DNA of 64,000 nt from the human T2T-CHM13v2.0 reference genome, Homo sapiens. The notes under the pieces were generated by a model, which saw only the letters and a list, made by a program, of their open reading frames with translations, made no database searches and was not told where the DNA came from. Positions 3,557-51,400 of this stretch are shown piece by piece (the first letter of the stretch is position 1; each line of letters starts with the position of its first letter). The stretch is from assembly GCF_009914755.1 (NCBI RefSeq), contig NC_060930.1; one strand, written 5' to 3'. The position numbers were made by a program, and so were the translations under genes.

Positions 3557-3622
3557 GCCAAAGAAGACAAGATAGCAGAACTGGAAACGGAAAACGCTGT
3601 CCTTCTTCTGAAATTGGCACAG
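3557..3622 (+). pseudogene. KIF25: Disconnected ancestral KIF25 coding exon A (AKEDKIAELETENAVLLLKLAQ), coiled coil
   Basis: Pyrimidine tract + ttgtag| acceptor, CAG|gtaata donor; 66 nt, phase 0-0; heptad-like I/L spacing. Confidence 0.75.
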
Positions 3623-3999
3623 GTAATATTTTCACATGTCCTGCAGGCTGAGTGGAATCGTATCCAGTGGGGAGTGATTTCGTGCTGAAGTCAGCTTTTA
3701 GCCCTTGTGGAAGAAATACATTGGGGGTGACTCCCTGGGACCTTTTCTTTTTGCCATCGAGTGAGGTGACAGGGAATCCTCGGTTGCTGTGTGAAGTGTC
3801 TTCTGACACTGGATCAAGGTTGAGCTCCAAATTCCTGTGTGTCTCTGTGCTCACAGGTATTTAATGAGTAACAATTCATCAGGAACTCACGCTTTTTCAA
3901 AACAGCTCTCTTGAGGTTTAGTGTACCAGGTGGGTGTACCATAAATTTACCCATGTTAAGTGTACAAGTCAACGTTTAGGAAATGTGTAGTTGTGCAAC

Positions 4000-4332
4000 T
4001 GACTTAGTCATTTGTGCTGCTGTAACAAAATACCTGCAACGGAGACATTTATTAAGAACAGGAATTTATCACTCACAGTTCTGGAGGCTGGAAAATCCAA
4101 GACCAGGTGCCGCGGGGCCATTGGCGAGGGCCCTTCTTCCTCACCGATGGTGCCATCTCTGGCACTGTCCTCTCCTGGCAGGACAGCGGGGAGCACAGAA
4201 GGCCTGCGCCGGTTCCCTCCAGTCCGTCCACGAGGCACAGGTCCGTCCCCAAAGGCCCCGCTTCTCAACGCCACCACATCGAGGGTTAAGCTTCCGCGTG
4301 AATTTTGGAGGTGGCTCATTCAAACCACAGCA
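4000..4332 (-). mobile_element. MaLR LTR (MST/MLT1-like)
   Basis: gctgctgtaacaaaatacc...ctcacagttctggaggctggaaaatccaaga. Confidence 0.7.
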
Positions 4333-4784
4333 GCCACCATCACCACAAGCCAGGTGCCCGGTGTCTCCATCACCTCGAAGGCCCCACAAGCCAGGTGCCC
4401 GGCATCTCCATCACCCCGAAGGGCCCCCGCCGGCGTGTTTCCACCCCTTCCCACACCCCGTTGTTCCAGGAAGCCGCTCTTCTGGTAACTCGAGTGATCT
4501 GTCATTCTGGGATCAGCCCCAGAACACTTGAACGATGCTACGCATATGATCTGTCTGCCTCACCAAAGAAAAATGTCTCTGGAAGATGACTGCGCTCAGT
4601 TTTTCTTGCAGGTTTGTTCTCAGAATTTAAAAGGAAGGGAGCACAAAGGGAGAACGCCCTTGGCACACACGGACTCGGGTGGTTCTTTTCTACCGTTTGC
4701 TGTTGCTACTTGGGTTAGGCTGAGAAGCGGTCGCGGAAAGAAAGCAGGCCTGAGTCCCTGGACACTTCTCATCAGGACATGAAC

Positions 4785-47003: not shown

Positions 47004-48145
47004 TGTAACACCACTTATTAAAACACCTCTCTCCCCACTGACCTGAGATGCCCCTTTATCTGACAGCCCGTTGCCACATGGAGTTGTATCTGTCTTCCTT
47101 CGGCCTACTTACTAATTCACGCAGCAAGACCAAGCTGTCATAGATAGAGTCTCAGAGAAGGTTCCAGTGTCTGAGCCCGTCCCATCCCAGTTCCTCTATT
47201 TTCCAGGGCTTCTTTCTATTCTCGTTCTTTTATTTTGCCAAAAAAAATTGTAACAAAACTTTGGAGCTCCAGGAAAAACCTGACAGCATATATAGTATTT
47301 TGGGGGGGATTGAGGTAAGTTTATAAACCAACTTTGGAAAAACTGGCATCTTCATGAGTTGACTCTTCTATTCAGGAACATGCCGTGACTTTTCACTTGT
47401 TTGAGTTTAATCATGTATTTTCAGGAGCCTTTTTATCATTTTCTTCATGAAGGATTAGAACATTTCTTATTAAGTTTATTTCCAGGCATATTTTTGTTGC
47501 TATCACTGATAGAGTCTCATCTCCCAGCATGTCTTCTAACTCTGTTTGTATATATAGAGGCTATGGATGTTTTTACATTAATTTTATGACCTGCTGTTTT
47601 GTTAAATTATTTTACTGATTTAGTAATTTTCTTTGTCTTTTCATTTTGGATTTCTCAGATGTATGGCCATATTAGCTCCAAGTAGAGATTGTTTTGCCTT
47701 TTCTGATTCTTATGTCACTAATTGATTTCTTTTGTTCAACTGCATAAGCCAATCATAGCTCGTTGCAATATTAAATAGTATTGCAGGTAAAGAGTATTGC
47801 AGGTAGTTGGCATCTTGGACTTTTCCCTCCTATTATGGGAAAAACTCCAGTATTCTTTAAAGGTAAGATGTACACAAAACCTAAAATATTTACGATCTAG
47901 TTTTTTCAGAAATAGTTTGCCAACCCTTGCCATAGATTAGGAAACTTAGAAGGCAGCAACCCTGTGCAATGTAGATGCCATGATGAATTATTATTTCTAA
48001 AACACCAGCTGGAAAAAGTAACTTAACTAGACAATTAAGGAAATGCGAACACTGACTTTTGGATGGTGTTAAAGAATAACTAACATTCATGTTAAGGCAT
48101 GGTCGTGGTAATACTGTTACGTTTTCAAGTCATGATCCTTTACAG

Positions 48146-48331
48146 ATATACTGGCCTTCCCAGCTGACATGGACCTCAGGTCAGCTTCAGCGTGAGAAGC
48201 AGGCCAGGCCTGGGTCTGGAGCCGTCCTGGCCTTCCCAGATGACATGGACCTCAGGTCAGCTTCAGCGTGAGAAGCAGGCCAGGCCTGGGTCTGGAGCCG
48301 TCCTGGCCTTCCCAGATGACATGGACCTCAG
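48146..48331 (+). CDS. KIF25: KIF25 start-codon exon within a 76-bp VNTR (ATG 48240; [31 protein letters not shown]). Alternative ATG/donor pair 48316/48407 gives ...DDKDL-R
   Basis: Acceptor cctttacag|A at 48146; donor CAG|GTCAGC repeated in each unit; phase 2 matches exon 49507. Which donor is used cannot be determined from sequence. Confidence 0.75.
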
Positions 48332-48451
48332 GTCAGCTTCAGCGTGAGAAGCAGGCCAGGCCTGGGTCTGGAGCCGTCCTGGCCTTCCCAGATGACAAGG
48401 ACCTCAGGTCAGCTTCAGCGTGAGAAGCAGGCCAGGCCTGGGTCTGGAGCC
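48151..48451. repeat. 76-bp tandem repeat, about 4 copies, overlapping the KIF25 start exon
   Basis: Registers at 48164 (ctgacatgg), 48240 (atgacatgg), 48316 (atgacatgg), 48392 (atgacaagg). Confidence 0.98.
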
Positions 48452-51400
48452 GGGTGATGTGCACATGGGGCTCACTTTTCTATTCTTTCTACTTTTGTAT
48501 CTTGGTGTATTTTCTGAGTGAAAAGTTAAAAAAGATCTCAGCCCTGAGCATCTTCCCACACAGTGCTCACCACACCCTCTACATCATGCATGTGGAACAC
48601 CTCATAAGGGTCCCCTCCCCCATGTCAAATTAATGCCGCTGCTGGAGGCGAAGTGGATCAACTGAGCGTCAGGACACACTTGAAAATGAAGGAAGGAAAA
48701 AACTTGGTTCCAGCTAAGTCAAAACCTGTCGTTCAGGAAACTGAGGTTCACATTAAAGCATACCTGACCAAGTGCAACCAACCACCAGTGCTGGGCAGCT
48801 GCCAGGGAGCCTGTTCTCTCACCGTGCTCCAGGCTTCTTTCAAATTGTGCAGGAAACGGCATTTTTTGGACGTTGCTTCCTATTTTATTTGTACCTGTTT
48901 ATAGACCCAGAACCACATGAGGTTTCCTTTTCAGAGTGGACATCCAGTCCCATGATATCAATTCAAGTTCTGCTGAACTGACCTGGGGCCTAGGAAAACA
49001 AGATTTTTAAGAGCTTGAACATAAAAATCAAATGTTATATATCAAATATTGCTCAGAGTGGGATTTTTACATTGTGATTATTGGGCCCTCTAAAGTAGAG
49101 CTAATTTAGTTATGGGATAATTATATCCTCCCTCTGTCCCTCTCTCTCTCTCTCCCTCCCTCCCCCTCCTCCTCCCTCCCCTCCCCTCTCATCTTCCCTC
49201 CCCTCTCCTTTCCCCTCCCGCTCTTCCCTCCCTTCCCCTTCCCTTCCTTCCTTCCTTCCTTTCTTGCAAGCATCTGTCACTTCATTTATGCTTATTACAT
49301 TTTCATAGCAGAAAGTACTATCTTTACTCTTTATTAACCTCTGTTATCTTGAAAAATAACACAGATTAATCTTTTGTTGAAGAATCCTGATGGCGTTGGG
49401 GGGATGGGAAGTACACGGGGCGTTGTGTTCCCAGGTTTCTGAGTCTGCATGCTAGAGCCGCTTTCTGCTGCTTCTATTAATACAGCATTTTCACTTTGTC
49501 TCTCAGGGTTTATGGTCCAGCAGAGTCTCAGAGCGCGGTCTTTGGAGATGTGTGCCCCCTACTCACTTCTCTCTTGGATGGGTGAGTTAAAATATTTTTA
49601 AGGCCAGTCATCATAGTTACATTTGAATATAAAGAAGCTTCACTGTGCTGTGGAGTGAGAATGTAGCATTAGAGTCTGAGCATTCTACAGCACTGCAGAG
49701 CATGCCCATGGGTCACCCAGCATGGACTCCACTTGCATCCATGGAGACTATTTCCGCACCCTGGGAAAAGGAGTGAGAATGATTTGGAGAATGCTTGTTA
49801 AATGAGCATATCCACCTGGGATTCCAAACTCCACTTTAGTTACAGTGCATGTGGGCTTAAGCCTGTGAGTGCAGCTGCCATTCTCTCTGGGATTCTAACA
49901 TTTCAGAATTTAAAAAAAATCTGTAAGGAATGTTAATGTCAGATTTAGGGACTTTTCCCTTTGGGAATCAGCCTTCTATTCTTGCAGTATACAACTACTG
50001 ATGTCAAAGGCAGTGGGCTGTAATTTAGGAATGAAGAATTTTTTTTTACTTAATGGAGACACCTTAAGCCAATACTTTCCACTCTGGGGCATTTTGAAGA
50101 ATCTCAGTTTTGTGGCAGAAGTCCACATAAAGTTCCTGACGAAGACGTACTTGCATTGTCCAGCAAAGGCTTCTGCACAGCCAACCTCAAGGAACCTCAA
50201 GGACCTAGAAACTGTAATTACACAGTGTGCTGCGCGTCCCAAAGGCACATGATCCAACGAGTAGGGTCAAGTCAGGAAGCTCCTGCATCCGACCACGCAC
50301 GCACGCGGGGCCGCTCCGCCAATCATGATGCAGTTGCTGCTTCAACTCTTCCTCCAGAGGGCTGGGATTTTTATACCCATCTGAAGAAATGGTTTTGAAA
50401 ATGATAGGGGAGTCTCTTTTTAAGTAGGCATCTTTTAAGTAAGCAGATTCCAGAAATAAAAAAGACATCGTGGTCACAGTGATCACTGCCAGAACTGCCT
50501 TTCCAGGATAATGCGAAACAAATGGAGTTAGTTTGAGTTCTGAGTCTTGTCAGCAAAAAGAGTCAAACCCTGTAAAATATTGGGAGAGATTTATCCTGAG
50601 CCAAATATGAGTGACCGTGGCCCATGACACAGCCCAGGAGGTCCTGAGAGCACATGCCCAGGGTGGTCGGGCGCAGCTTGGTTTTGTACATTTCAGGGAG
50701 ACATGAGACTTCAATCCAATTCATTTTAAAAATACATTGGCTCTGGAATGTCTGGGTTAAGGTAAAGGATTATGGAGACTAAAGTTCTCATTTGCAGAGG
50801 AAGCCTTTAGGTAGCAGCTTCAGAGAGAACAGAGTGTAGATGTTTCTTATCAGATGTAAGATCTGTGTCGATATTAAGGCTGCAGGGTATCGTGAGGCCT
50901 GTCCGGCCCCCACTTCCCGTCATGGCCTGAACCAGACTCTGAGGTTAAATTTTAGAGTGCCCTGGCCAAGGAGGAAGTCCATTCAGATGGCTGGGGGGCC
51001 TTAGAATTGTGTTTTTGGTTTACAGCTTCCTTCTCCGGGAAGTTTCCTTTTAATGTTCATTCTTAAATGGTTGAAAGACTCCTGTAAGAACCCATTTATC
51101 TGTTGTAGTCAAAGATATTCTCCACACAAAGAAATGCATGTAAATGAATTCAGGGAAGCTGGAAGAGACATAGCCTATAGTGGGGTTTTGTTATGAATGC
51201 CTTGAGACTTTTTAATCCTGGAAGGAAAACTCACAGGATGGTAACGCAGAGGCCTGATCAGCTTGGCGGGAGCTTGTGGTTTCCAGGCTCTTGTGGCTGG
51301 AATGTAACAGTCAACCCTAGTGACTCAAACCGTCAGCCCCAGGACTGGGCTCTGCTGCTTTTCCTGTCCTTTTCTAGGGGAGACTTAGATGTCAATCAGA

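What the first reader, a model, noticed from the sequence alone, without database searches (positions are those of the whole stretch)
3557..49581. A hidden, stop-free N-terminal half of KIF25 (stalk, kinesin-14 neck, motor start) spread over 45 kb upstream of the short CDS
Seen: exons 3557-3622, 7788-7910, 10384-10522, 13227-13330, 18015-18103, 22270-22306 and 36628-36695 (626 nt) chain with matching phases (0,0,1,0,2,0,2) into exon 49507 with no stop. The result is a 1689-nt, 562-aa ORF: AKEDKIAELETENAVLLLKLAQ...LERQRRKVPHNSLVELKRNIRVHCRIRP...[35 protein letters not shown]...GQTGSGKS. Known: kinesin-14 motors (Ncd, Kar3, KIFC1, KIFC3) have an N-terminal coiled coil and the neck signature RRxLHNxxxELKGNIRVFCRVRP, which the 384-aa product lacks. 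Inference: this is the ancestral full-length gene and the familiar human protein is a truncated remnant. I recall longer KIF25 orthologues in other primates, so the truncation itself may be known. Only exon D's peptide is visible in the ORF track.
Basis: partly seen in the sequence, partly recalled or inferred. Interest (0 to 1): 0.92.

Follow-up and report, generated by a model that had tools for sequence, protein, structure and literature searches.

The report
Broken front half of human KIF25
These seven exons are broken leftovers of the long kinesin motor gene that orangutans and monkeys are predicted to still encode; the leftovers were already reported in 2019, and damage to the remaining motor suggests human KIF25 is likely a decaying gene rather than a hidden intact one.

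Summary
The seven exons are real. They map in order to residues 25-232 of the 589-aa predicted orangutan KIF25 (stalk, kinesin-14 neck, first motor strand). They do not form a usable ORF. RefSeq splices 53 nt later and hits a stop in the next exon. The true first coding exon, 7.3 kb upstream of the window, has a one-base frameshift and also a CT donor. RefSeq transcripts start after exon D, and the annotated ATG lies in a 76-bp tandem repeat. Mudge et al. 2019 already reported eight upstream KIF25 pseudoexons and raised pseudogene status, so the core finding is known. Added here: the lesions themselves, and decay of the annotated motor. Five of 9 human-only changes hit conserved sites, versus 0 of 17 in Old World monkeys (p=0.002). 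They include switch II L475S and N498S, the position of KIF5A's disease mutation N256S. Gibbon and New World monkey models look damaged too. Best reading: a decaying unitary pseudogene. Published human knock-down phenotypes argue against this.

The parts
3557..3622 (+). Pseudoexon A, orangutan aa 25-46, stalk helix; AG/GT intact; not in RefSeq transcripts. The ancestral first coding exon lies 10.9 kb upstream of it, outside the window (L009:2673-2745), frameshifted and with a CT donor.
   Evidence: exon 1:
7788..7910 (+). Pseudoexon B, aa 47-87, stalk; AG/GT intact
10384..10522 (+). Pseudoexon C, aa 88-133, stalk; AG/GT intact
13227..13330 (+). Pseudoexon D, aa 134-168, stalk end and neck; carries L163P; overlapped antisense by KIF25-AS1
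   Evidence: supplied annotation
13821..16319 (.). 24-bp tandem array (about 101 copies) between exon D and the RefSeq transcript start at 16454
18015..18103 (+). Exon E, aa 169-197: neck G-N-I-R motif and first motor strand; carries G172R. Transcribed as 5' UTR (RefSeq 17875-18103), with an in-frame stop just upstream of the ancestral acceptor.
22270..22306 (+). Exon F, aa 198-210; carries V204A; now read as a 90-nt out-of-frame UTR exon to 22359
22307..22312 (+).
36628..36695 (+). Exon G, aa 211-232; AG/GT intact; out of frame with a stop in the RefSeq mRNA
48151..48452 (+). 76-bp tandem repeat (4 copies) that supplies the annotated ATG (48240) and the first 31 codons of the 384-aa product
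49507..63918 (+). Seven annotated coding exons, aa 233-589: the rest of the motor domain, P-loop intact
61052..61592 (+). Cluster of 7 human-only amino-acid changes in about 540 bp (L475S, I481V, T494M, N498S, D506G, S512L, V518A), across switch II and the following helix

Best explanation
The seven exons are broken relics of the full-length kinesin-14 gene KIF25, and the human locus is likely a decaying unitary pseudogene whose 384-aa product would not work as a motor. Shown: the ancestral gene has 8 more coding exons, encoding a long helical stalk, the neck and the first motor strands. In this human genome exon 1 has a frameshift and a CT donor, and exon F has a CT donor, so splicing moves to an out-of-frame site. 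RefSeq transcripts start after exon D and take their ATG from a tandem repeat, behind 37 upstream ATGs. The remaining coding exons carry changes at residues invariant in other amniotes. Inferred: purifying selection was relaxed by the African-ape ancestor at the latest, and separately in gibbons and New World monkeys. The human-only cluster in switch II likely reflects GC-biased gene conversion acting on an unconstrained gene near the 6q telomere. Any product would lack the dimerising stalk, the direction-setting neck and the first strand with its RxRP motif, and would be uncoupled from microtubule activation.
For: Exon order and identity against orangutan. Dead donors and frameshift. In-frame GT sites near exon F match the donor consensus at only 2-4 of 9 positions, versus 5-9 of 9 for 16 real donors (crude score). 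Short forms start at Pfam PF00225 position 47-49 of 327. Conserved-site hits in aa 233-533, where 122 of 301 sites are conserved: human-only 5 of 9, all African-ape branches 9 of 26, Old World monkey terminal changes 0 of 17; Fisher p=0.0019 and 0.0067. L475 and N498 are invariant in 43 of 43 outgroup orthologues. N498 aligns with the Asn of the I-N-K/R-S-L motif of kinesin-1, KIFC3 and Ncd. PMC3000839 describes KIF5A N256S as a defective motor and Kar3 N650K / Ncd N600K as uncoupled. G172 is the G of the neck G-N-I-R motif, and Ncd G347D weakens microtubule affinity about 6-fold (PMC3266953). 7 of 11 human-only changes fall within 44 codons (scan p=0.0045), and 7 of 11 are A/T to G/C. [quoted passage not shown]
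Against: Human-cell phenotypes are published. In HeLa, 2 of 4 siRNAs suppressed Golgi fragmentation with a 60-70% drop in protein signal (PMC6687757). KIF25 was a CRISPR suppressor hit of DSCC1 loss, with siRNA follow-up (PMC10917660). Antibody proximity signal was seen in HaCaT cells (PMC11784366). Decarreau 2017 is cited as evidence of function but could not be read. The 384-codon frame has no stop or frameshift, and its P-loop is intact. Human versus bonobo change counts (11 vs 5, p=0.21) and the hidden-half test (3 of 10 vs 0 of 10, p=0.21) are not significant. Orangutan also has 3 of 14 differences at conserved sites. Orthologues are predicted gene models, CHM13 is one haplotype, no primate DNA was available, and the GC-bias test rests on assumed mutation rates.
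Confidence: 0.7

Rival explanations
1. The upstream exons are dead, but the truncated 384-aa protein is made and has a retained or new non-motor role, such as passive microtubule binding or interference with other kinesins. This is close to the inference of Mudge et al.
For: Open 384-codon frame with intact P-loop; knock-down, CRISPR and antibody reports in human cells; GENCODE kept it coding because of published support.
Against: Changes hit conserved sites at the rate expected with no constraint: 5 of 9 against 122 of 301. The start comes from a tandem repeat, with C at -3 and 37 upstream ATGs in NM_030615.4. The first motor strand is absent. Antibody and siRNA specificity could not be judged from the passages read.
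Confidence: 0.2
2. A near full-length human KIF25 is still made in some tissue or on some haplotypes, through weak in-frame donors, an alternative first exon, or alleles that keep GT at the two dead donors.
For: Six of the seven exons keep AG/GT and none has a stop. Weak in-frame GT sites exist at 22318, 22333 and 22363, and one 162 nt after the exon 1 ATG. Only one haplotype was examined.
Against: Two independent breaks must both be bypassed. The alternative first exon used in bonobo models has no GT donor in this genome. The product would still carry L163P, G172R, L475S and N498S. Mudge et al. call the exons apparently untranscribed.
Confidence: 0.04
3. The human-only cluster in switch II reflects positive selection for a new function of the short protein.
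For: 7 human-only versus 0 clear bonobo-only changes in aa 475-518 (p=0.016); clustering p=0.0045.
Against: 5 of the 7 are A/T to G/C and the other 2 are CpG transitions, which fits biased conversion plus mutation. The changes remove invariant motor residues, and gibbon and New World monkey models show parallel decay.
Confidence: 0.06

Closest known systems
KIF25 pseudoexons, Mudge et al. 2019 Genome Res (PMC6886504), main text and Supplemental Data S1 row 563
   Same: [quoted passage not shown] Their hg38 regions fit exons 1, A, C, D and E by near-constant offsets (my inference).
   Different: The passages read do not name the lesions, the repeat-derived start, or the damage inside the annotated motor. 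They say the exons are not transcribed in higher primates, whereas RefSeq now has orangutan and macaque models containing them and human E, F and G lie in the 5' UTR.
Full-length vertebrate KIF25 (orangutan 589 aa, chicken 587 aa, horse 587 aa; predicted models)
   Same: Same exon order; 22 of 22 hits to the exon C query were primate kinesin-family proteins of 463-891 aa.
   Different: Orthologues keep the neck Leu and Gly, DLAGSE and INRSL; the human sequence has lost all four and cannot splice exons 1 and F in frame.
Kinesin-14 motors Ncd, Kar3, KIFC1, KIFC3, KCBP
   Same: The orthologue profile's best solved matches are Kar3, KIFC3, KCBP and Ncd (E 1e-76 to 1e-82), aligned through the neck; stalk and neck precede a C-terminal motor.
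   Different: KIF25 has a long insertion before the switch II strand (about aa 413-463) and H-A-D in place of N-E-H before SSRSH in switch I. The human product has no stalk or neck.
Unitary pseudogenes of the human lineage (class as defined in PMC6886504)
   Same: Single-copy orthologue of a gene that is coding in other vertebrates, with frame-disrupting lesions.
   Different: Still transcribed and spliced, keeps a 384-codon open frame, is annotated as coding, and has published knock-down phenotypes.

Membership tests
Kinesin-14 (ancestral KIF25) | Motor domain C-terminal to a helical coiled-coil stalk | tested here: met
   Orangutan model: helices 9-66 and 78-168, then the motor (mean pLDDT only 57.5). 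Best heptad register 0.69 hydrophobic versus 0.20-0.44 for aa 12-66. Pfam.
Kinesin-14 (ancestral KIF25) | Neck signature LHN..xELxGNIRV | tested here: met
   Present in orangutan, macaque, marsupial, bird and reptile orthologues; aligns with Kar3.
Kinesin-14 (human 384-aa product) | Stalk and neck present | tested here: not met
   The product begins at the equivalent of aa 233; the genomic neck relic carries L163P and G172R.
Kinesin motor (human 384-aa product) | Complete motor domain including the first strand and RxRP motif | tested here: not met
   Strand 173-180 lies in exon E; short primate forms start at PF00225 position 47-49 of 327.
Kinesin motor (human 384-aa product) | P-loop GQTGSGK[S/T] and switch I SSRSH | tested here: met
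Kinesin motor (human 384-aa product) | Switch II DLAGSE and the invariant Asn of the following helix | tested here: not met
   L475S and N498S, each invariant in 43 of 43 outgroup orthologues.
Kinesin motor (human 384-aa product) | Microtubule-stimulated ATPase and minus-end motility | not testable with these tools
   Needs biochemistry.
Unitary pseudogene | Frame- or splice-disrupting lesions relative to an intact ancestral CDS | tested here: met
   Exon 1 frameshift, exon 1 donor and exon F donor.
Unitary pseudogene | No intact duplicate elsewhere in the genome | tested here: inconclusive
   Of 48 matches in the own-genome search, all at 76% identity or more lie at this locus; matches elsewhere reach at most 68%. 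The search used a stricter first look.
Unitary pseudogene | Lesions fixed in the species | not testable with these tools
   One haplotype; no variant data.
Unitary pseudogene | Loss of purifying selection on the remaining CDS | tested here: inconclusive
   The amino-acid test supports it (5 of 9 vs 0 of 17, p=0.0019); no codon-level dN/dS was possible.
Unitary pseudogene | No functional protein product | not testable with these tools
   Published knock-down reports point the other way.

The most novel reading that the evidence does not exclude
Human KIF25 is a dead kinesin wrongly counted among the human motors. It lost its stalk, neck and first strand, then acquired in its reference sequence the same Asn-to-Ser change that causes spastic paraplegia in KIF5A, in a GC-biased burst after the split from Pan. 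The gene decayed independently in gibbons and New World monkeys while orangutans and Old World monkeys kept it. The centrosome-tethering and Golgi roles credited to endogenous human KIF25 would then be off-target, RNA-level, or properties of non-human protein.
Probability: 0.5. Interest if true: 0.6.

Novelty: already known. Interest (0 to 1): 0.33.

Why it matters
What matters is the consequence. KIF25 is cited in cell biology as a working human motor that holds centrosomes together, yet the sequence here is unlikely to encode such a motor. The named lesions and the N498S and L475S changes turn an annotation edge case into direct tests: assay the 384-aa protein, rescue knock-outs, and read the two donors across apes and human haplotypes. 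A recent, repeated primate loss of a kinesin conserved across amniotes would also raise the question of what replaced it.

Tried and rejected
Intact hidden ORF: rejected because of the CT donor at 22307 and the broken exon 1. Rescue by skipping: E-to-H, or long F to H, stays in frame, but no ATG can enter that frame in the RefSeq mRNA (stop just upstream of 18015, no Met in E-F) and motor strands are lost. Bonobo's alternative first exon maps to -11084..-11016 but has no GT donor here. Single-exon Pfam scans of the hidden exons gave no kinesin match (0 of 6 scanned; exon F not scanned, too short). Exon 1 was not at the place first projected from hg38, which is a tandem repeat; it lies about 950 nt further upstream. 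The AlphaFold model was weak (pTM 0.47); Foldseek ranked Ncd and Kar3 first, but with TM about 0.3 and rmsd 14-22 A, so only secondary structure was used. Dating the lesions failed: no ape DNA was available, and 90% clustering hides members (the orangutan cluster has 60), so the absence of full-length Pan or gorilla hits proves nothing. KIF25 was not in the one Berglund 2009 supplement file searched. Paper searches used partial term matching and listed no paper containing KIF25. Decarreau 2017 was not held. Earlier scan findings were not available.
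Full report
1. Observation. Twelve of 13 donors are GT. The intron after exon F (22270-22306) begins CTGAGT. It also has no start codon.

2. The exons are genuine. A search with exon C alone returned 22 of 29 candidates, all primate kinesin-family proteins of 463-891 aa, mostly named KIF25, at 91-96% identity. 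Orangutan isoform X1 (P0014, 589 aa, a predicted model) maps onto all seven exons in order as aa 25-232, then onto the annotated exons. A search with aa 1-235 gave 275 hits among 1946 candidates; the 120 listed span mammals, marsupials, birds and reptiles. I chose 43 near full-length non-catarrhine proteins, about one per species, out of 194 fetched. Each hidden exon is covered in 38-43 of the 43. A low-confidence AlphaFold model (mean pLDDT 57.5, pTM 0.47) gives helices 9-66 and 78-168 and the first motor strand at 173-180. The family profile matches Kar3, KIFC3, KCBP and Ncd best, through the neck.

3. The missing first exon. Orangutan aa 1-24 are not in the window. In the upstream 10 kb they map to L009:2673-2745, window about -7327..-7255, in two frames. 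The exon is 73 nt rather than 72, with a run of 8 G, and its donor also reads CTGAGT. That both dead donors read the same six bases is unexplained; without ape DNA I cannot see the ancestral bases. In-frame GT sites near exon F score 2-4 of 9 against the donor consensus, 16 real donors score 5-9, and the out-of-frame site in use scores 6 (a crude match count against a recalled consensus).

4. What the human transcript does. By the supplied annotation, transcripts start at 16454, after a 2.5-kb 24-bp array, so exons A-D are not included. The first donor lies in a masked, Alu-like repeat (family recognised from memory). E, F and G are 5' UTR. The annotated ATG at 48240 is in a 76-bp tandem repeat of four copies, has C at -3, and follows 37 upstream ATGs. 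Short primate models of this form begin at Pfam kinesin position 47-49 of 327. The product lacks stalk, neck and the first motor strand; that this strand is part of the core sheet is established knowledge, not tested here.

5. The annotated motor is damaged too. Conserved sites were defined as at least 90% identical in the 43 outgroups: 122 of 301 in aa 233-533 and 47 of 208 in aa 25-232. Human-only changes in aa 211-533, against bonobo P0128, orangutan and five Old World monkeys, are V213I, N226D, S311L, M352V, L475S, I481V, T494M, N498S, D506G, S512L and V518A. Five of the nine in aa 233-533 are at conserved sites. Old World monkey terminal branches show 0 of 17 (Fisher p=0.0019); all African-ape branches together show 9 of 26 (p=0.0067). 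Shared human-bonobo-gorilla changes include P280R and P314T at conserved sites, so relaxation probably predates humans. Dropped before counting: positions 489 and 516 (ambiguous polarity), gorilla G258R (exon junction), changes on the ape/monkey stem, and the Chlorocebus model. Against this reading: human versus bonobo totals (11 vs 5) and the hidden-half test (L163P, G172R, V204A; 3 of 10 vs 0 of 10) are not significant (p=0.21 each). Orangutan has 3 of 14 differences at conserved sites. The consensus ancestor is dominated by monkeys, and all orthologues are predicted models. Two gibbon models have 7 conserved-site changes each (of 29 and 23). Two New World monkey models show altered switch II by eye.

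6. Meaning of the changes. L475 is the Leu of switch II DLAGSE. N498 aligns ungapped with the Asn of I-N-K/R-S-L in KIFC3, a kinesin-1 chimera and Ncd. In 2NCD it falls on chain position 320, which is N600 if the construct starts at residue 281 (start recalled). PMC3000839 (passages) calls KIF5A N256 an invariant switch II Asn homologous to Ncd N600 and Kar3 N650; N256S causes SPG10 and abolishes single-motor processive motion in vitro. G172 is the Gly of the neck G-N-I-R motif. Ncd G347D at that position has about 6-fold weaker microtubule affinity (PMC3266953, passages). Seven of the 11 human-only changes lie within 44 codons, about 540 bp (scan p=0.0045). Seven of 11 are A/T to G/C, against about 21-25% expected under assumed mutation rates (p=0.003-0.008). 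I infer GC-biased gene conversion on an unconstrained gene; synonymous sites could not be checked.

7. Prior knowledge. Mudge et al. 2019 (PMC6886504; I read two passages, section 11 and one supplement row; supplement files 1 and 8 were not searched) report eight pseudoexons upstream of the human CDS. [quoted passage not shown] The two broken exons found here (1 and F) would fit that, though the paper does not name them in what I read. Searches pairing KIF25 with kinesin-14, macaque, centrosome, pseudogene and primates (listings only, apart from the papers named) showed no title or abstract opening about the lesions or motor substitutions. The library lacks most subscription papers, and bioRxiv supplements were not seen. 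Decarreau 2017 was seen only as a title in reference lists. My recollection that it used a macaque construct is unverified.

8. Evidence for human function, from passages only: siRNA suppression of Golgi fragmentation in HeLa with reduced protein signal (PMC6687757); a CRISPR suppressor hit of DSCC1 loss with siRNA follow-up (PMC10917660); antibody proximity signal in HaCaT cells (PMC11784366). PMC12804990 only cites the centrosome role. These reports keep the functional-fragment rival at about 0.2.

9. Verdict. Novelty: already known. The useful residue is a concrete case that human KIF25 is unlikely to be a working kinesin-14 and is probably a decaying pseudogene (0.7). Interest 0.33.

Noticed in passing
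L009:2673-2745 (about window -7327..-7255, outside the window): Ancestral first coding exon of KIF25: ATG intact, 73 nt instead of 72 (run of 8 G, frameshift), donor reads CT; lies within the span of antisense lncRNA HGC6.3.
   Followed up: yes
L009:2746-2751 and window 22307-22312: Both dead donors read the same six bases, CTGAGT. Two independent G-to-C changes at donor +1 in one gene is an odd coincidence and is unexplained without ape DNA.
   Followed up: partly
about window -11084..-11016 (L010): The first exon of bonobo KIF25 models P0126 and P0128 maps here at 96%. Those models skip ancestral exon 1 and B-F, hinting that bonobo is also broken. In this genome the exon has no GT donor.
   Followed up: partly
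window 13821-16319: 24-bp tandem array of about 101 copies just before the transcript start. PhyloCSF coordinates imply it is about 2.1 kb shorter in hg38.
   Followed up: partly
window 20296-21035: A tandem array built on a unit of about 33-34 bp. Four of the nine PhyloCSF regions in Mudge's KIF25 row project here, so they are probably repeat artefacts rather than exons.
   Followed up: partly
window 48151-48452: The 76-bp repeat unit that supplies the human start also appears in gorilla, siamang and pig-tailed macaque short models, so it is not human-specific DNA. Those models may be projections of the human annotation.
   Followed up: partly
window 10874-13763: Antisense lncRNA KIF25-AS1 overlaps pseudoexon D.
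   Followed up: no
P0011, P0004: Some orangutan models splice D directly to G, skipping the neck/first-strand exon E and exon F in frame.
   Followed up: partly
listings: Hamster, vole, deer mouse and squirrel KIF25 appear, but no named Mus or Rattus entry among the 120 rows listed in either search; a possible further loss in murids.
   Followed up: no
window 18673-19459, 54155-54451, 63044-63593; L009 about 3300-4100: Further GC-rich minisatellites (31, 23 and 43 bp units, and a C-rich array after exon 1), typical of a subtelomeric locus.
   Followed up: no
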